Source: a virus. Taken from it: a stretch of 64,000 nt of DNA. Positions 5,609-17,880 of this stretch are shown in pieces. A program made the position numbers and the translations under genes. The stretch's first letter is position 1. Each line of letters starts with the position of its first letter. Location of the stretch: positions 1 to 64,000 of IMG/VR virus record IMGVR_UViG_3300020048_000073; one strand, written 5' to 3'. The notes under the pieces are model-generated. The model worked only from the letters and a program-made list of their open reading frames with translations. It ran no database searches and was not told the DNA's origin.

Positions 5609-5708
5609 AGTTTCTCCTTAGGTTATGGCTCGTTGTAATATTTACACATAATGTATAATATTAGCGTATTAAGGGGGTAAAAACTACTACTTTTTGATTT
5701 TTATTGTA

Positions 5709-5930
5709 TTATAAGGCTGGCATTTCAGGAGCAGGAGCGTATTGTTTTTTAATCAAATCTAATTTTTGTTTATATTCAACGGTCCTAATGTCATTTAATT
5801 GACGTAATTGACGTAATTGTCTTAGAGTAAGACGTGTTTTTCTCAAGTCTTTGAGTGTGGTTTGACTATTGTCTTGCGACAAATCTTGATAAGCTGACGG
5901 GGTAGATGAATAAATTTCTGTTAAGAACAT
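5709..5930 (-). CDS. Small conserved-looking head-module protein
   Basis: 73 aa, RKTRLTLRQLRQLRQL; TAAATA 5 nt before ATG; directly after portal. Confidence 0.7.
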   Translation of the reverse strand: MFLTEIYSSTPSAYQDLSQDNSQTTLKDLRKTRLTLRQLRQLRQLNDIRTVEYKQKLDLIKKQYAPAPEMPAL

Positions 5931-5941
5931 AATACTATTTA

Positions 5942-12078: not shown

Positions 12079-12918
12079 ATGGCTATTAACAACCCACTAA
12101 ATCAATATTTTCGACACCCTACTATCTACATTAGATTGCCCTCTCAAGGCAATTATTATGAGCCTGGCAGCATAGAAATGACAGAATCACGCGAATTTCC
12201 TGTTTTACCCATGACAGCCATTGATGAAATCACGTACAGAACGCCAGATGCCTTGTTTAACGGTGAAGCAGTCGCTACAGTTATTCAAAGCTGTATGCCC
12301 AATATCAAAAACGCTTGGGCAGTTCCATCGATAGATTTTGAAACTATTTTGGTGGGAATTAGAATAGCCAGTTACGGGCCAGAAATGAACTTTGACAGTA
12401 CTTGCCCATCATGTTTGACCTCAACAGAACACGCAATTGATTTGCGATTAATTTTAGATCAAATTGGCTCCGCTGATTATTCTAAAGAACTGCAACACGA
12501 CGACCTAACACTGTATTTTAAACCGTTGACATATCGAGATCTCAACGATAACAATAAATTTCAATTTGAAAATCAAAAAACAGCAGAATATCTACAAGGT
12601 AAAGACGTAACTGATGAGAAAAAAATGGAAGTTATCAGTCAAACCATTATGAAAATAACTCAATTGACAGTAAAAGCATTGACTAATAGTATCAAAGCTA
12701 TTAAAACGCCTACTACATTAGTCAGCGAAAGCAATTACATTGAGGATTTTTTAAACAACTGTGATAGAAAACTGTTTAAACGTGTAGAAGAAACAGTAAC
12801 TGATCTCAAATCAGCAACAGAAATAAAACCTCTTAAAATTAAATGCCCGAGCTGTCAACACGAGTATCAGCAGTCGCTAACGTTGGACATGGCAAATTTT
12901 TTCGCGGACGCCTCTTAG
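12079..12918 (+). CDS. gp26: Baseplate hub assembly protein, T4 gp26-like
   Basis: NPL..YFR.P.IYI.LPSQG, PMTAIDEI, IRIASYG, two CxxC pairs (CPSC, CPSC), ends ...MANFF. Confidence 0.8.
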   Translation: MAINNPLNQYFRHPTIYIRLPSQGNYYEPGSIEMTESREFPVLPMTAIDEITYRTPDALFNGEAVATVIQSCMPNIKNAWAVPSIDFETILVGIRIASYGPEMNFDSTCPSCLTSTEHAIDLRLILDQIGSADYSKELQHDDLTLYFKPLTYRDLNDNNKFQFENQKTAEYLQGKDVTDEKKMEVISQTIMKITQLTVKALTNSIKAIKTPTTLVSESNYIEDFLNNCDRKLFKRVEETVTDLKSATEIKPLKIKCPSCQHEYQQSLTLDMANFFADAS

Positions 12919-13133
12919 CTCTAGCACCTGAAGAAATAGAAAAACTGCTTGAGCAGTTTGACACCGAAGTAAGGACTATTAGCAAAGAGGCGACAGACAT
13001 CGCATGGTACAGTAGAGGATCCCTGATGTGGTCTGATGCCTTTGCTCTGTCTCCAGATCAAAGAAAAATATGGAATGATATGATCAAAGATCATCTTGAA
13101 ACAACGAAGAAAAGTGGATTACCTTTCTTTTAA
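12894..13133 (+). CDS. gp51-like hub assembly chaperone, probably expressed as a -1 frameshift extension of gp26
   Basis: WYSRGSL.WSDAFALSPDQRK...LETTKKSGLPFF; ORF 12843..13133 is in the -1 frame relative to gp26 and spans the slippery run AAATTTTTTC (12894-12903). Confidence 0.65.
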   Translation, partial: KFFRGRLLALAPEEIEKLLEQFDTEVRTISKEATDIAWYSRGSLMWSDAFALSPDQRKIWNDMIKDHLETTKKSGLPFF

Positions 13134-13194
13134 AACTTTCAGTTAACACAATACAATTTTTTAAAAGAATTTAAATTTGATATATTTTTGTGTT

Positions 13195-13645
13195 ATTTCA
13201 AGACCTACTTCGTAAGTCTATTGTTTCGCTATCGCTCACAATATTTTTTTAATTGATTGCTTTTAAGATACTTCATCTAGACCTTTCAGTCATAGTTCAC
13301 CCGACAAACGGGTGAACGTAACGGGACTTCATCTGAGCCTCACAGTCATTTATTATAAAGAGATTCGTAATACACTTACGACGGAGGCGGTTGATCGGTA
13401 CCCCCTACTCTAGCTTCACATCTCAACGGAACCCTAGTGACCCAATAATAAATCCAAGTCCTATAAGCATGGGTCGTATCTTTTTCAACGGAGCCCAAAC
13501 CATTTGTTGCCTTAAGTTAGCTTTTTCCTTTGACACCCGAGTGAGCATTTGCTCCTTCTATCCGAATATGGTATCGCACATATCCTCAACGGGGATCGAG
13601 CATTCTCGATCAAACAGAGTCGTTTAGTTGCCTTACTGTGTTGTT
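13195..13645 (-). ncRNA. Candidate large structured non-coding RNA (or ssDNA-structured origin)
   Basis: Longest non-coding gap in the window, with many nested inverted repeats, three TCAACGG copies, two GTTGCCTTA copies and a 24-nt direct repeat; a G-U wobble at 13201-13219 favours minus-strand folding. Confidence 0.55.
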
Positions 13646-13649
13646 TGTA

Positions 13650-14084
13650 TTACTGTTTGATTTTATTTTTTATATGCGATCCATGTACACGAACGCTGAT
13701 CTGTCCGTTGTAATAATCGTCTGACTCTAGTACTCTATGATTAAATTGTTCTCGGGCTTCAACATAACTACATTCTGCCTTTGATTTACAATAAAATAAT
13801 ATTTCCCTTGTGAAGTTGTCAGCGCCTAGCGCCAGTATGTCTTGATTGAGTTGTTCGTTGCTGCCATAGTATTGTTGCCAGTCTGATTCTATTTTGCTTC
13901 GTATTTTTTTGCGCTTCTTGATGCCGTTCTTTTGTTTTACTATTCGATATGTTGTCTTACTAAATTTTGCTAGTTTTTTGCCTATGTATTTTCGGCCTGT
14001 TGCAAGATTTGTTATTAAATAAACAAACCCAACACAGTCCTCGGGTAATTCAATAATTGTAGTGTTTTCGTACAGCCATACCAT
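13650..14084 (-). CDS. Minimal GIY-YIG family endonuclease (Seg-like catalytic domain only)
   Basis: GFVYLITN...RKYIGKK, YYGS, FTREIL...E, YYNG motifs; 144 aa with a K/R-rich insertion; TAACTA box 7 nt upstream. Confidence 0.85.
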   Translation of the reverse strand: MVWLYENTTIIELPEDCVGFVYLITNLATGRKYIGKKLAKFSKTTYRIVKQKNGIKKRKKIRSKIESDWQQYYGSNEQLNQDILALGADNFTREILFYCKSKAECSYVEAREQFNHRVLESDDYYNGQISVRVHGSHIKNKIKQ

Positions 14085-14117
14085 AGACTAGTAGTTATGA
14101 CTGTACACCTACAATAG

Positions 14118-15617
14118 TTAATTTTTTTCTGCATTTAAATGATAAATTAGTTTTTTTGGTTTTGTATTGGTTATTTGATAATCATCTAGTAGATTTGACA
14201 TTTTTTTTAGTTCTGCTCGAGAATTAGGTTGACTGTATCCTAGATCAAAGCTGATCTCATGCAGTTCAACTCTTCTTCGAATTCGCTCAACTAAATTTAA
14301 ATCTGGATTGTCCAGTGATAGCCAGGCATACAAAGTGTCAGAATTGTTGTGATCTGCATCTTCAATTTGATATAATTGATCTCTGTATAACGGAGTATCT
14401 TTTATTATGTGCATAGTAGTGCCCCATCGTATCATAAAAATTGTTCCCATATCAGAATAAATTTTGTAACGATGCAACCGATCTATATTGATATAGTGGT
14501 CTTCTAAGGTTTCTTCTGGGTGTCCTACTATCATAAGAAAAATATTTGGAATAGCCCATCGACCGCATTGTTCCAAATGATAATCAATACTATGGTCATT
14601 AAATTTTTTCTTCATTGCGTTGCGTATTTTTTCACTGAAACTTTCTATGCCTACTGTAATTTGCCTTACACCTGCGTAATGCATCAGCTCGTACATGATC
14701 TTGGGTTGATTAACACTGTCTCGACAAATAAATTGTCCGCTATAACTAATATCTTGCAAGAATGAATCTTTTGCTTTTGCTTCGACCAACAAATGATTAA
14801 AACGAATCCAATTGGACACACTACCGTTTATTAAACTGTCAGTGAATTCAAATCTCTTGATATTGTATTCCTTGGCATGGGCAACCATCTCAGCTACCAA
14901 ACTCTCAGGAGATCGATATCGAAATTTAGGCCATATGGTTTCGATGTCACAAAACGTGCATTTTCGAACACATCCTCGACTACCAGTGATTAATAAACGA
15001 CTGTCTTGATATTGAGAAAAATCTACCGGACTGTAGTCAGGCAACGGCAACTGATCAAGGTCTTTGATTTGTACGACATTATTTTTATCTAAACCCGGAT
15101 GTGTTCGATCAGTTAACAATGCCTCTAGACTTTGTTCGCCTTCGCCAAATATAACATGATCTGCCCAATCTTGATCTAAAATCTGTTGACCAAACGTGGT
15201 ATAATCTGTAATTGCTTTTAACGAGCTACTAACTCCAGCACCCCCAACCAACAACATGCAATTGGGAATTTGTTCTCGAATCATGGGCAATAATAACTGT
15301 GCAAAAGTTATGCTATTAAAAGTAAACACACTAACTCCAATACAGTCGGGTTGTTGTAAAATCCAACCTTGAATTTTTTCTTGTAAAAAAGCAGTAATAG
15401 TAGTTTGCACCCGCGGCTCTAACGGTGCAATTAACTCACACCAGTTGTGCATATTTTCCAAATCTAAGTTGTTAAGAGCTTGGTGCAATTCTAAATTAAG
15501 ATCAGACACAGCAACATCAAATCCGTTGTTTTTAAAAATTGGAGTAATGGCGGCTATGCCCGCCGATGGATAAAGCGACTCAGCCAACGGAATACTAACT
15601 AATATTGCTTTTTTCAA
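14118..15617 (-). CDS. B12-binding radical SAM protein (class B methyltransferase-like)
   Basis: N-terminal cobalamin-binding-like region (P.AGIA.I, IGVSVF, VGGAG, FGEGE) and SRGCVRKCTFC CxxxCxxC; VGIES, IVGHPEET. Confidence 0.9.
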   Translation of the reverse strand: MKKAILVSIPLAESLYPSAGIAAITPIFKNNGFDVAVSDLNLELHQALNNLDLENMHNWCELIAPLEPRVQTTITAFLQEKIQGWILQQPDCIGVSVFTFNSITFAQLLLPMIREQIPNCMLLVGGAGVSSSLKAITDYTTFGQQILDQDWADHVIFGEGEQSLEALLTDRTHPGLDKNNVVQIKDLDQLPLPDYSPVDFSQYQDSRLLITGSRGCVRKCTFCDIETIWPKFRYRSPESLVAEMVAHAKEYNIKRFEFTDSLINGSVSNWIRFNHLLVEAKAKDSFLQDISYSGQFICRDSVNQPKIMYELMHYAGVRQITVGIESFSEKIRNAMKKKFNDHSIDYHLEQCGRWAIPNIFLMIVGHPEETLEDHYINIDRLHRYKIYSDMGTIFMIRWGTTMHIIKDTPLYRDQLYQIEDADHNNSDTLYAWLSLDNPDLNLVERIRRRVELHEISFDLGYSQPNSRAELKKMSNLLDDYQITNTKPKKLIYHLNAEKN

Positions 15618-16116: not shown

Positions 16117-17880
16117 CTACGCAATTTCTACATCTGTGTTGTAGCTGGTAAAGCCATTTTCCTTGACCACTCTGAGTATGTTCTCTACTCGCCCGGCTAG
16201 TTCGTCTCTGTGGCTGACCAACCAAATTGATTTGTGTCGTTCACGACTCATCTGCTTTAACAATGCCAATGCTGATTCTACACCTTGGGTATCTAAACCG
16301 TTGTCGATCATTTCGTCTATAAACAACACGTTGATAGGCTGATACAAGGATTCAAACACGTCACGGAAGGCCCAGCTCATGCTGAGAATTAACCTATTAC
16401 GCTCACCACGACTCAAATTGTCAAAGTCTAATTCACGTCCCAGCTCTTCAATACTAACTGTTAAGTCATTTTGAAACACTACAGTATGCGGTAATCCAAT
16501 ACGATCCAAATAGTGTGTTAGTCTAGCATTTAAATAACTCAAATTCTGTTCTATAATTTTCTTGCGGATAAATGAGTCTTTACTTGTTAGAAGTTTAAGC
16601 AAAAATTCCTGATGTTCTTGTAGTCTAGTAAGCTCGTTGAGTGTGTCATAACTAACTGTCTGCAGAGCTTGCCCCTGCATGTCTTCAATTTGTTCATCAT
16701 ACGGATCAATCTCACACTGTTTTTCCTCTAACTGCTTTTGTAGAGAAGCTAGGCTACTACGATGATGAATAGCTTCCTCTTCATGATCATAAAACATTTT
16801 GGGCGGCTTGCCTAACACGCCCAAGGACGTGTGGGTAATCTCCATTTCTGCCAATAATTGGGCATGCCCTTGGCTTGCCGTTCGTGCCGTTGCCAAATCT
16901 TTCTGCTTATTTTCCATGACCAGTTGGTGCTTTTTGTCGTGGAAGGCCTGACCGCAAGTGTGACATGTGTGAGACTCAAGTGATTCAATTTCACTTTCAA
17001 GTTTCTTAATGCTCTTGTTTTCGCGATCATAGTCGAGCTTGGTCCGACTGATCTGCGTTGACAGATCGTTGATGTCTTTGCGTTTTTGGTCCCAAGCCTT
17101 ATGATCTTTGTGCGCAACAATTTCCGCGTCAATGTCAATCTTTTGTAATTCTTCAAGCGCAACCTCCAACTTTTTAATATCTTCCGCATGCTTATTAGCC
17201 CACATTGTTTGTCTACGTTTTAATGCTTCAATTTGTTCTTCAATACGTTTGTTTGCTTCTTGTACAGCACGAATCCTAAATTCTTCCTGCGTAACAGCAT
17301 CTTTAGTGCCGCGATTTTGTTCTTTTACTTTATCAGCACGCTCACTCAACAACGTAATGCCAAGTAACTGTTCAATAATTGTGCGCTGGTCATTAGCTTT
17401 TAAACTTAAAAACGGCTCTGTGTAAGTGTTGAGTGCTAGAATATGTTTGAACATGTCGTGTGTCATGCCCAATGTATGTTCGATAGCATCTTGGGTTTCG
17501 CGACTGTCTCCTTGCGAATTGTCCTCAGATTCTTGCTCTTTGTTATTAACATAAAACTTTAGAACATTAGGTTTACGCCCACGTTCTATTTTGTATTCTT
17601 GTCCATTTACCGCAAAATCCAAACTGACTACCATATTCTTACTGTTAGTCTTGTTTACAAGATTGTCCTTGCGTATGTTACTGAGCGCCACACCATACAT
17701 AGCGTACGATAACGCATTGATAATTGTAGTTTTTCCTGTACCGTTACGACTACCATCTCCGCCCAAGTCCATATTTTCGCCCAAGACTAGCGTTAAATCT
17801 TGCCGATCAAAATTAATGCCCTGAGTAGCGTTACCTACACTCATGAAATTTCGTACTGAAAGTTTTTTAATTTGTATCAT
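16117..17880 (-). CDS. gp46: Recombination endonuclease ATPase subunit, T4 gp46 / SbcC / Rad50-like
   Basis: Walker A NGTGKTT, zinc hook CHTCGQ, signature LSRGE, Walker B LFIDE, H-loop VSH. Confidence 0.96.
   Translation of the reverse strand: MIQIKKLSVRNFMSVGNATQGINFDRQDLTLVLGENMDLGGDGSRNGTGKTTIINALSYAMYGVALSNIRKDNLVNKTNSKNMVVSLDFAVNGQEYKIERGRKPNVLKFYVNNKEQESEDNSQGDSRETQDAIEHTLGMTHDMFKHILALNTYTEPFLSLKANDQRTIIEQLLGITLLSERADKVKEQNRGTKDAVTQEEFRIRAVQEANKRIEEQIEALKRRQTMWANKHAEDIKKLEVALEELQKIDIDAEIVAHKDHKAWDQKRKDINDLSTQISRTKLDYDRENKSIKKLESEIESLESHTCHTCGQAFHDKKHQLVMENKQKDLATARTASQGHAQLLAEMEITHTSLGVLGKPPKMFYDHEEEAIHHRSSLASLQKQLEEKQCEIDPYDEQIEDMQGQALQTVSYDTLNELTRLQEHQEFLLKLLTSKDSFIRKKIIEQNLSYLNARLTHYLDRIGLPHTVVFQNDLTVSIEELGRELDFDNLSRGERNRLILSMSWAFRDVFESLYQPINVLFIDEMIDNGLDTQGVESALALLKQMSRERHKSIWLVSHRDELAGRVENILRVVKENGFTSYNTDVEIA

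What the first reader, a model, noticed from the sequence alone, without database searches (positions are those of the whole stretch)
13195..14097. Minimal GIY-YIG nuclease followed by a ~450-nt ornate structured non-coding element: candidate nuclease-RNA system or nick-primed origin
Seen: in an otherwise gap-free genome, the only long non-coding tract starts right at the nuclease stop codon with no obvious terminator between. It holds perfect hairpins (GATCGAG/CTCGATC 13594-13611; GTTCACCCG/CGGGTGAAC 13295-13317), a long-range 9-bp stem (13348-56 with 13445-53) enclosing further hairpins, a competing GACCCA/TGGGTC pairing (possible pseudoknot) and several short repeats. A wobble pair favours the same (minus) strand as the nuclease. 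The nuclease has only the catalytic domain plus a KQKNGIKKRKKIRSK insertion and no DNA-recognition tail. Known: compact nucleases can get specificity from an adjacent structured RNA (HEARO/omegaRNA with IscB), and phages encode large ornate RNAs (GOLLD, ROOL). Inference: a co-transcribed ribonucleoprotein, possibly RNA-guided. The alternative is a replication or packaging origin folded as ssDNA and nicked by the enzyme. I do not recognise it as a named family.
Basis: partly seen in the sequence, partly recalled or inferred. Interest (0 to 1): 0.85.

Follow-up and report, generated by a model that had tools for sequence, protein, structure and literature searches.

The report
Knotted twin-box RNA beside phage nuclease
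The gene-free stretch behind a small DNA-cutting-enzyme gene of this uncultured T4-like phage encodes a real, about 440-base, knotted non-coding RNA. It carries the same 7-letter word twice and always lies next to a nuclease gene, but nothing shows that it guides that nuclease, and its job is unknown.

Summary
Window 13195-13635 (minus strand) is a conserved structured RNA. On 35 relatives, 96.6% of cells in a 99-pair model with a pseudoknot are paired, against 36-43% in slid controls, and 47 pairs show compensatory changes.

No Rfam family matches the window. A profile built only from sister RNAs whose front part is Rfam Polynucleobacter-1 finds the window's 3' module (E 4.8e-9). So this is a new front-domain variant of a larger, undescribed "twin-box" family. 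This scan has already met the family several times on other DNA.

Two 7-nt words (13270-13281 and 13326-13337) are identical in 99 of 100 relatives, although eight different words occur. No complementary partner was found.

All 157 distinct RNAs with enough flank have a nuclease gene upstream on the same strand: 154 GIY-YIG and 3 of a non-homologous PD-(D/E)XK type. The RNA-guide reading is not supported:
- Relatives of the nuclease (40-50% identity) lack the RNA.
- Other ORFs sit between nuclease and RNA in about 12% of loci.
- No guide-like segment exists.
- No nuclease residue tracks the words.

My best reading is a free-standing RNA kept beside a Seg-type nuclease, as T-even SegB sits beside tRNA genes. 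Its function is unknown.

The parts
13650..14084 (-). 144-aa stand-alone GIY-YIG nuclease gene (Pfam SegE_GIY-YIG; PHROG 447, mis-named 'NAD synthetase')
   Evidence: Pfam E 1.4e-33, residues 3-129. PHROG 447 E 2e-37. Y22, Y33, G35, E109 and N126 are invariant and R93 is nearly so. The model has pLDDT 90 and matches the I-TevI catalytic domain at Z 8.5.
13195..13635 (-). Whole structured RNA, about 440 nt; the ends are inferred from conservation, not mapped
   Evidence: Conserved in about 100 distinct IMG/VR sequences. A 99-pair model is 96.6% paired, with 47 compensatory pairs.
13627..13633 (-). 5' AGGCAAC motif, found a few bases after the stop codon of whichever ORF lies upstream
   Evidence: Present after GIY-YIG and after inserted ORFs in most relatives, and after the PD-(D/E)XK gene of L222 only as AGGCA. 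It may mark the 5' end or a processing site (inferred).
13594..13611 (-).
   Evidence: 7 of 7 pairs form in the window; 5 of 7 pairs show compensatory changes.
13531..13622 (-). 5' domain: long-range helix H0 (13619-22 with 13531-34), which encloses H1, H2 (13590-93 with 13536-39) and hairpin H3 (13564-13585)
   Evidence: MI pair 13621:13532 is GC in 83 sequences and CG in 14. H2 has 2 of 4 and H3 has 4 of 6 pairs with compensatory changes.
13507..13523 (-). Hairpin H4, carrying the second AAGGCAAC motif
   Evidence: Columns 118-122 with 130-134; pair 118:134 is UA, CG or AU. Only 3 of 5 pairs form in the window.
13466..13501 (-). Hairpin H5 with internal loops
   Evidence: 9 of 9 pairs form in the window; 4 pairs show compensatory changes.
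13435..13463 (-). Hairpin H6; its loop (13445-13453) forms the pseudoknot
   Evidence: 9 of 9 pairs form in the window; cells are 99.7% paired.
13348..13356 (-).
   Evidence: 9 of 9 pairs form in the window; 6 of 9 pairs show compensatory changes.
13383..13434 (-). Near-invariant core: hairpin H7 (13412-13434, never varies), the 5' strand of H8 (13408-11, pairing with 13359-62) and hairpin H9 (13383-13405)
   Evidence: Column identity is about 90% or higher. Pair H8 230:285 is AU in 21 sequences and UA in 14.
13366..13380 (-). Hairpin H10
   Evidence: 4 of 4 pairs show compensatory changes.
13326..13349 (-). Repeat unit 1; the core of box 1 is CUC-AGAUGAA-GU at 13326-13337
   Evidence: The two boxes co-vary by identity at 3 positions, 97-99% identical. 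The words are identical in 99 of 100 loci, although 8 words occur.
13295..13317 (-).
   Evidence: Perfect 9-bp stem in the window. The inner pairs show compensatory changes. It is present in all family types.
13270..13293 (-). Repeat unit 2; the core of box 2 is UCU-AGAUGAA-GU at 13270-13281
   Evidence: Same as box 1. A profile built without type-A sequences hits 13271-13356 at E 4.8e-9.
13220..13242 (-). Hairpin H12 with a GA / GAA internal loop and a 2-bp tip
   Evidence: 6 of 6 outer and 2 of 2 inner pairs show compensatory changes. Shared by all types.
13201..13219 (-). Terminal hairpin H13, terminator-like but with a weak U tract in the window
   Evidence: 7 of 7 pairs form in the window; 6 of 7 pairs show compensatory changes. 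The terminator scan does not call it.

Best explanation
Window 13195-13635 (minus strand) is the gene of a free-standing structured RNA of about 440 nt with at least one pseudoknot. It belongs to an undescribed 'twin-box' family of uncultured T4-like water phages and has a front domain of its own (type A). Sister RNAs have Rfam Polynucleobacter-1 as their front domain.

The RNA is probably made as the tail of the leftward gp46 ... radical-SAM ... GIY-YIG transcript and ends at a hairpin. I think it acts in trans as a rigid scaffold. It would hold two copies of one 7-nt word in unpaired stretches on either side of a clamp hairpin, and so engage one partner twice, or two copies of one partner. 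That partner is unknown.

The nuclease encoded upstream does not use the RNA as a guide. It is a conserved Seg-type DNA endonuclease kept next to a stable-RNA gene, as T-even SegB is kept in the tRNA cluster. There SegB cuts the DNA of the RNA genes and so promotes inheritance or amplification of that locus.

Shown: the RNA, its fold, its strand, the identity of the two boxes, the linkage to a nuclease gene, and the nuclease fold. Inferred: co-transcription, action in trans, the SegB-like role of the nuclease, and what the boxes bind.
For: RNA and fold:
- Stops and frameshifts break the only candidate ORF in relatives.
- The 99-pair model is 96.6% paired against 36-43% in slid controls. It has 47 compensatory pairs, and 0 of 500 shuffles reach the observed values.
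- G-U pairs fix the strand.

Family:
- No Rfam hit in the window.
- Sister loci hit RF01718 at 87-120 bits directly after the GIY-YIG stop codon and share the 3' module.
- Profile R1, built without type-A sequences, finds only 13271-13356 in the 64-kb window (E 4.8e-9).

Twin boxes:
- Words are identical in 99 of 100 loci, with 8 words in use.
- On a tree, the boxes change in step at least 20, 7 and 4 times at the three positions, and all four combinations of positions 1 and 5 occur.
- In a genome-wide pattern scan, the 9 true hits have identical boxes and the 14 chance hits do not.

The nuclease is not dedicated to the RNA:
- 494 cultured-phage records hold homologues at 40-50% identity; the three loci inspected lack the RNA.
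- A PD-(D/E)XK nuclease takes the same position in L222, L238, L084 and L108.
- Inserted ORFs separate nuclease and RNA in 18 of 157 loci.
- No GIY-YIG residue tracks the box letters.

SegB parallel:
- In cyanophage-type relatives, 30 of the 80 loci fetched (74 with at least 900 nt of downstream flank) have tRNA genes downstream on the same strand, usually with tRNA-Arg first, and none upstream.
- SegB lies in the T4 tRNA cluster and cuts tRNA-gene DNA (PMC2330249).
- SegB homologues are enriched near tRNA genes, are described as domesticated, and drive amplification of the neighbouring locus (PMC13096335).

The nuclease is a conserved, intact enzyme. It is 70-86% identical where gp46 is 50-87% and gp26 35-57%, and its catalytic residues are invariant.
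Against: - Every RNA with enough flank has a nuclease gene upstream on the same strand (157 of 157). That is tighter than the SegB-tRNA association and would also fit a functional pair.
- No allele without a nuclease was seen, so there is no direct sign of homing.
- None of 224 loci carries two RNA copies, and 163 of 163 RNAs have exactly two boxes. So there is no trace of amplification.
- No partner of the boxes was found in the RNA, within 3 kb on either side, or in the 92-kb contig.
- There are no expression data.
- The nuclease lacks the DNA-binding tail of the T4 Seg proteins.
Confidence: 0.45

Rival explanations
1. Ribonucleoprotein. The RNA is a working partner of the nuclease encoded upstream, as guide, specificity scaffold or inhibitor. 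The two identical boxes might dock two subunits of a nuclease that has no DNA-binding domain of its own.
For: - Strict linkage on the same strand (157 of 157).
- The RNA starts a few bases after the stop codon, with no terminator in between.
- The nuclease is a bare catalytic domain with a long basic beta-arm.
- When GIY-YIG is missing, another nuclease takes its place rather than nothing.
Against: - Homologues at 40-50% identity in 494 phage records; the three loci inspected lack the RNA.
- GIY-YIG and PD-(D/E)XK folds are unrelated, so one RNA would have to serve both.
- Inserted ORFs occur in 18 of 157 loci.
- Front domains A, B and others sit behind nearly the same nuclease.
- There is no hypervariable guide segment.
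- No nuclease residue co-varies with the box letters; MI is at most 0.30 of 1 bit.
- No complement of the boxes lies nearby.
Confidence: 0.18
2. Bivalent decoy against host immunity. The RNA mimics the substrate or antitoxin of a host endoribonuclease, in the manner of a phage pseudo-ToxI. Both boxes would then have to match the cleavage motif of the same host enzyme, so they change together from host to host.
For: - It explains identity without conservation of the two words.
- It explains exactly two copies.
- The RNA has a pseudoknotted scaffold, and type III antitoxin RNAs are pseudoknotted repeats (my own knowledge).
- There is a published link between a Seg nuclease and anti-defence loci, including one against ToxIN (PMC13096335).
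Against: - Only about 12 nt plus UGAC are shared between the two units, not whole repeats.
- Only 8 words were seen, differing at few positions.
- The large conserved front domain is left unexplained.
- No host or defence system is known for these phages.
Confidence: 0.1
3. Cis-acting 3' untranslated element. The fold protects the operon transcript from 3' exonucleases, or controls expression of the nuclease gene, and has no role of its own in trans.
For: - It lies at the very end of a long leftward transcription unit, facing the gp26/51 genes.
- No promoter of its own is evident; promoter-like sites are not above chance (6 against 4.0 +/- 1.9).
- It follows whichever ORF is upstream.
Against: - About 440 nt, a pseudoknot and an invariant 50-nt core are far more than a stabiliser needs.
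- The identity of the two boxes has no role in this model.
- The RNA is kept unchanged when the upstream gene is exchanged.
Confidence: 0.1
4. DNA-level element: a replication origin, an R-loop primer site, or the conserved recognition site of the nuclease, read as folded single-stranded DNA.
For: - It lies next to recombination genes (gp46) and a nuclease gene.
Against: - Cumulative GC skew runs straight through 13 kb and turns only near 25 kb.
- Many invariant G-U pairs exist on one strand only.
- Compensatory changes keep helices rather than sequence, which argues against a protein-read DNA site.
Confidence: 0.06

Closest known systems
Polynucleobacter-1 RNA motif (Rfam RF01718; Weinberg et al. 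2010, PMC2864571)
   Same: In sister phage loci, RF01718 sits directly after the same GIY-YIG gene. It is followed by the same 3' module as in the window: twin boxes, clamp hairpin, GA-loop hairpin and terminal hairpin.
   Different: The window's front 300 nt do not match RF01718 even at E up to 10, and they fold differently. The Rfam model covers 141 nt and none of the shared 3' module. The paper only lists the motif in a table and gives no function.
SegB and the tRNA gene cluster of T-even phages (PMC2330249; PMC13096335)
   Same: A free-standing GIY-YIG nuclease gene lies beside stable structured-RNA genes of a T4-like phage. SegB homologues are enriched near tRNA genes and are described as domesticated. 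Cyanophage relatives of the window's nuclease also precede tRNA genes.
   Different: The nuclease here is 144 aa with no DNA-binding tail. T4 and T6 were not among the tblastn hits at E 1e-5. The neighbour is a 440-nt RNA, not tRNAs. Neither cleavage of the RNA gene's DNA nor amplification has been shown, and no amplified locus was seen.
HEARO / omega RNA with IscB (OMEGA systems)
   Same: A compact nuclease gene with a large structured RNA next to it, on the same strand.
   Different: There is no RuvC or HNH nuclease, no variable guide at either end of the RNA, no transposon ends, and relatives of the nuclease do without the RNA.
Large ornate RNAs of unknown function (GOLLD, ROOL)
   Same: A large, intricately folded, phage-borne RNA with strong covariation and no known role.
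   Different: No match to their Rfam models. This RNA is smaller, has the twin boxes, and is strictly linked to a nuclease gene.
Type III antitoxin RNAs and phage pseudo-ToxI (my own knowledge)
   Same: Short direct repeats that present identical sites in a pseudoknotted RNA. Phages use such RNAs as mimics.
   Different: Only the box and UGAC are repeated, not whole units. The neighbouring gene is a DNA-nuclease fold, not a ToxN-type RNase, and it lies upstream rather than downstream.

Membership tests
Rfam RF01718 Polynucleobacter-1 | Match to the covariance model at or above the gathering score (37 bits) | tested here: not met
   No hit in the window at the gathering threshold, nor at E up to 10 on 12900-14200. 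Sister loci score 87-120 bits.
Twin-box RNA family (working name in this scan; includes the RNAs that start with RF01718) | Sequence profile of the twin-box module built from members other than type A | tested here: met
   R1, built from 45 non-type-A sequences, hits 13271-13356 (minus strand) at 32 bits, E 4.8e-9. It is the only hit in the 64-kb window.
Twin-box RNA family | Two identical 7-nt words about 55 nt apart, on either side of a conserved hairpin | tested here: met
   AGAUGAA occurs in both boxes, within 13326-13337 and 13270-13281, with the hairpin at 13295-13317 between them. Words are identical in 99 of 100 relatives.
Twin-box RNA family | GA-loop hairpin and terminal hairpin at the 3' end | tested here: met
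   Hairpins at 13220-13242 and 13201-13219. In the alignment, 8 of 8 and 6 of 7 pairs show compensatory changes.
Twin-box RNA family | A nuclease gene upstream on the same strand | tested here: met
   GIY-YIG gene at 13650-14084 (minus strand). The same holds for 157 of 157 relatives with enough flank.
SegE-type GIY-YIG nucleases (Pfam PF19835) | Pfam match above the curated cut-off, GIY-YIG fold, catalytic Tyr, Tyr, Arg, Glu and Asn | tested here: met
   116 bits against a cut-off of 25. I-TevI catalytic domain Z 8.5, rmsd 2.6 over 82 residues. Y22, Y33, E109 and N126 are invariant and R93 is at least 90% conserved.
T4 Seg homing endonucleases (SegA-G) | C-terminal DNA-binding domain behind the GIY-YIG domain | tested here: not met
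   The protein ends 15 residues after the Pfam domain. All close relatives have the same length.
T4 Seg homing endonucleases | Site-specific cleavage of alleles that lack the gene, and a patchy distribution | tested here: inconclusive
   Cleavage cannot be tested here. No nuclease-free allele was seen among 157 loci, and the gene is as conserved as gp46. That looks domesticated rather than patchy.
RNA-guided nucleases of the OMEGA/CRISPR kind | A scaffold RNA with a variable guide segment that matches a target | tested here: not met
   The only variable stretches are loops, an A-rich linker and short segments next to the boxes. No complement of the boxes was found within 3 kb or, beyond chance, in the contig.
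Replication origin | A turn of the cumulative GC skew at the site | tested here: not met
   The skew falls steadily through 13 kb; its minimum is near 25 kb.

The most novel reading that the evidence does not exclude
The RNA and the nuclease encoded in front of it (GIY-YIG, or PD-(D/E)XK where that has replaced it) form a ribonucleoprotein. In it, the two identical 7-nt words choose, by base pairing, the nucleic acid that is cut. That would be a programmable nuclease of a kind unrelated to Cas9, Cas12, IscB or TnpB.
Probability: 0.06. Interest if true: 0.95.

Novelty: new variant of a known kind. Interest (0 to 1): 0.6.

Why it matters
Large, knotted RNAs that are conserved across hundreds of phage genomes are rare, and each one studied so far has revealed new biology. 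This one is abundant in uncultured T4-like lake phages. It lies at a fixed place next to a nuclease gene, and only a different front part of its sister version is catalogued.

Its two boxes must stay identical, yet they may change. That rule points to a partner that is met twice, or to a pairing scheme not yet described, and it gives a clean mutational test. If the SegB parallel holds, the principle 'nuclease guards or amplifies a stable-RNA locus' would extend from tRNAs to a new class of phage RNA. If the RNA does work with the nuclease, it would be a new kind of RNA-dependent nuclease.

Tried and rejected
- Small protein: the 41-aa ORF with a good ribosome-binding site (13423-13548, minus strand) is broken by stops and frameshifts in relatives.
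- tRNA or tmRNA: none found.
- Rfam: nothing at the gathering threshold. The weak Glutamine-II, ES173 and CrcZ rows lie far below their cut-offs.
- Similar DNA in cultured phages: none for RNA types A, B or C.
- Hammerhead reading of the UGAUGAGCG...GCGAAA hairpin: covariation shows a simple hairpin with a GA internal loop. There is no three-way junction.
- Cis partner of the boxes: no column of the RNA shares more than 0.25-0.5 bit with the box columns. There is no reverse complement at a fixed place within 3 kb. The 7 other copies of the 8-mer in the 92-kb contig show no pattern.
- Concerted evolution by repeat expansion: 163 of 163 RNAs have exactly two boxes, and no locus has two RNAs.
- Mini-ORF, ribosome-hopping and CRISPR-like mini-array readings of the two 24-nt units with a 32-nt spacer: start and stop codons are not conserved, the 'spacer' is a conserved hairpin, and the inner parts of the repeats differ.
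- The two AGGCAAC motifs do not change in step.
- A mobile cassette spread by recent transfer: the nuclease is no more conserved relative to gp46 than a core gene would be.
- Bacterial homes: the 9 true hits in the prokaryote genome collection are all MAG contigs that look like binned phage DNA.
- Model R1 came out without base pairs, so it tests sequence only.
- Foldseek gave no hit at E of 0.001 or better, and the PDB sequence search gave only chance rows. VIA-align was needed to show the GIY-YIG fold.
- Pairing of the short variable segments next to the boxes: only 0.2-0.25 bp above permuted partners, too weak to draw.
Full report
**Setting.** The window is part of a 92-kb contig of an uncultured T4-like phage. 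Around the finding lie the following genes:
- a gp26-type baseplate hub gene (12079-12918, plus strand) and an overlapping ORF (12843-13133, plus strand);
- the gene-free tract 13134-13649;
- a 144-aa GIY-YIG gene (13650-14084), a B12 radical-SAM gene (14118-15617) and gp46 (16117-17880), all on the minus strand.

The tract therefore lies at the end of a long leftward gene string, facing the rightward baseplate genes.

The tract has homologues directly behind the same nuclease gene in dozens of IMG/VR contigs, at 72-90% nucleotide identity. A core at 13382-13529 reaches about 90% column identity. The one attractive small ORF, 41 aa with an AGGAG in front, is broken by stops and frameshifts in most relatives, so the conservation is not coding.

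On 35 sequences RNAalifold found 86 pairs, 38 of them with compensatory changes. The resulting 99-pair model performs as follows:
- 96.6% of cells are paired, against 36-43% when the partners are slid by 1-3 columns.
- 47 pairs show compensatory changes, against 7-15 in the slid controls.
- 0 of 500 shuffles reach any observed measure.
It crosses hairpin 13435-13463, so it is a true pseudoknot.

Invariant G-U pairs exist only on the minus strand, the strand of the nuclease gene.

**What family is it?** Rfam 15 has no match, either at the gathering threshold over the whole window or at E up to 10 over the tract. There is no tRNA or tmRNA.

About half of the closest GIY-YIG loci carry a different non-coding tract. 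In five of them its first 141 nt is Rfam RF01718, Polynucleobacter-1, at 87-120 bits, starting a few bases after the nuclease stop codon. The literature library mentions that motif in only one paper, as a table row with no function.

These sister RNAs share their 3' part with the window: two boxes, a hairpin between them, a hairpin with a GA internal loop, and a terminal hairpin. A profile built only from 45 such non-type-A modules finds one place in the 64-kb window, 13271-13356 on the minus strand, at E 4.8e-9.

So the window holds a member of a larger family with exchangeable front domains, and its own front domain ('type A') is not catalogued. Earlier notes of this scan reached the same family from other genomes and called it twin-box RNA. 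I re-tested those claims here.

**The twin boxes.**
- Position. Two 24-nt units (13326-13349 and 13270-13293) each end in the word AGAUGAA.
- Identity. Across 99 distinct type-A sequences, three box positions vary and are 97-99% identical between the two boxes. In 100 loci the words are identical 99 times, although eight different words occur.
- Independent changes. On a tree built from the rest of the RNA, the three positions change at least 20, 7 and 4 times, always in both boxes. All four combinations of positions 1 and 5 exist, so a single crossover cannot explain the pattern.
- Control. A loose pattern scan of 185,579 prokaryote genomes gave 23 hits. The 9 with identical boxes are true family members and the 14 with unequal boxes are chance.
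- No partner found. No RNA column shares more than background information with the boxes. No reverse complement sits at a fixed place within 3 kb. The other copies in the 92-kb contig show no pattern.
- Always two boxes. All 163 distinct RNAs have exactly two boxes, so repeat expansion and collapse is not visibly at work.

Why the words must be equal remains unexplained.

**Linkage to a nuclease.** I fetched loci in three ways: by the nuclease, by the gp26 neighbour, and by an invariant RNA motif. The last two are blind to the nuclease.

Of 157 distinct twin-box RNAs with enough upstream flank, 136 have the GIY-YIG gene directly upstream on the same strand, and 18 have it with one or more other ORFs in between. 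Three have instead a gene of Pfam PDDEXK_15 (PHROG 244), and none lacks a nuclease gene.

The RNA always begins a few bases after the stop codon of whichever ORF precedes it, in most cases with an AGGCAAC motif. No terminator lies before it and promoter-like sites are not above chance. Co-transcription is therefore likely, but no transcript data were available.

**The nuclease.**
- Family: it matches Pfam SegE_GIY-YIG over residues 3-129 and PHROG 447, which carries the wrong name 'NAD synthetase'.
- Residues: the catalytic Tyr, Tyr, Glu and Asn are invariant, and the Arg nearly so, in 31 relatives.
- Fold: the AlphaFold model (pLDDT 90) is a GIY-YIG core with a long basic beta-arm made by the Lys-rich segment. 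The best structural matches are the I-TevI catalytic domain (Z 8.5), the GIY-YIG restriction enzyme PD-T4-3 (Z 7.6), the UvrC N-domain (Z 5.8) and T4 EndoII (Z 5.5).
- Conservation: it is as conserved as gp46 and far more than gp26, and no nuclease-free allele was seen. It behaves like a fixed, useful gene, not like a patchy selfish one.

**Does the RNA guide it?** The evidence is against that reading.
- Homologues at 40-50% identity occur in 494 cultured-phage records (cyanophages, Melnitz, phiN3 and others). The three loci inspected have different neighbourhoods and lack this RNA.
- A nuclease of an unrelated fold can take the same place.
- Other ORFs can separate the two.
- Different RNA front domains follow nearly the same protein.
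- There is no variable guide-like segment.
- No residue of the nuclease follows the box letters; MI is at most 0.30 of 1 bit.

The origin idea also lacks support. The cumulative GC skew has no turn here, and the fold is strand-specific with many G-U pairs.

**A better parallel.** In cyanophage-type relatives of the nuclease, 30 of the 80 loci fetched (74 with at least 900 nt of downstream flank) have tRNA genes downstream on the same strand, nearly always with tRNA-Arg first, and none upstream. T4 SegB, also a free-standing GIY-YIG enzyme, lies inside the tRNA cluster and cuts tRNA-gene DNA of related phages (PMC2330249). A 2026 study shows three things (PMC13096335):
- SegB homologues are enriched next to tRNA genes.
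- They are described as repeatedly domesticated.
- They drive recombination-based amplification of the neighbouring anti-defence locus.

The simplest reading is that this nuclease family tends to live beside stable-RNA genes and acts on their DNA. In the lake-phage lineage that stable RNA would be the twin-box RNA.

This is an analogy, not a demonstration. No cleavage, homing or amplified locus was seen, and the linkage is tighter here than for SegB.

**Verdict.** The finding is real and interesting. It is a roughly 440-nt knotted RNA gene, the type-A variant of a widespread but undescribed family, with an unexplained rule that two 7-nt words stay equal. My odds are:
- about 0.45 that it is a free-standing RNA beside a Seg-type nuclease;
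- about 0.18 that it is a working partner of the nuclease;
- about 0.1 each that it is a decoy against a host RNase or a cis-acting 3' element;
- about 0.06 that it is a DNA-level element.

No cultured phage carries it, so transcript mapping in metatranscriptomes and in-vitro work are the next steps.

Noticed in passing
L222:2293-2805 (minus strand), L238:1011-1517 (minus strand); also L084, L108, L099, L107: In a few relatives a PDDEXK_15 nuclease gene (Pfam PF24608; PHROG 244, 'RusA-like resolvase') stands where the GIY-YIG gene normally is, directly upstream of the RNA. This is a replacement by a non-homologous nuclease.
   Followed up: partly
L307-L386 (IMG/VR relatives of cyanophage ACG-2014d gp171); L282:3474-4279: The cyanophage branch of this GIY-YIG family (annotated 'NAD synthetase' in GenBank and PHROG 447) often lies upstream of the phage tRNA cluster. 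30 of the 80 loci fetched (74 with at least 900 nt of downstream flank) have tRNA genes downstream on the same strand, usually with tRNA-Arg first, and none upstream.
   Followed up: partly
L017:3365-4435 (plus strand), and similar ORFs in L165, L174, L186, L217 and others: In about 12% of loci an ORF with no Pfam or PHROG match (356 aa in L017) is inserted between the GIY-YIG gene and the RNA. The RNA then starts right after that ORF's stop codon.
   Followed up: partly
window 12079-13133: The gp26-like ORF and the following 96-aa ORF overlap by 76 nt in different frames. Another note of the scan proposes a programmed frameshift here. I did not test it.
   Followed up: no
window 5609-5941: This is the only other stretch of the window of 200 nt or more without an ORF of 75 aa or more. 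It has no Rfam hit at the gathering threshold.
   Followed up: no
window 13650-14084; GenBank records such as NC_026923.1 gp171 and NC_028945.1 gp310: The product name 'NAD synthetase' given to this protein family in many phage records and in PHROG 447 is wrong. The family is a GIY-YIG nuclease by Pfam match, conserved residues and fold.
   Followed up: yes
L288, L293 (Haliscomenobacter MAG contigs of 148 and 183 kb), L301 ('Bifidobacterium' MAG contig of 56 kb): Contigs filed under bacterial MAGs carry the GIY-YIG gene plus the twin-box RNA. They look like T4-like phage genomes binned with bacteria.
   Followed up: no
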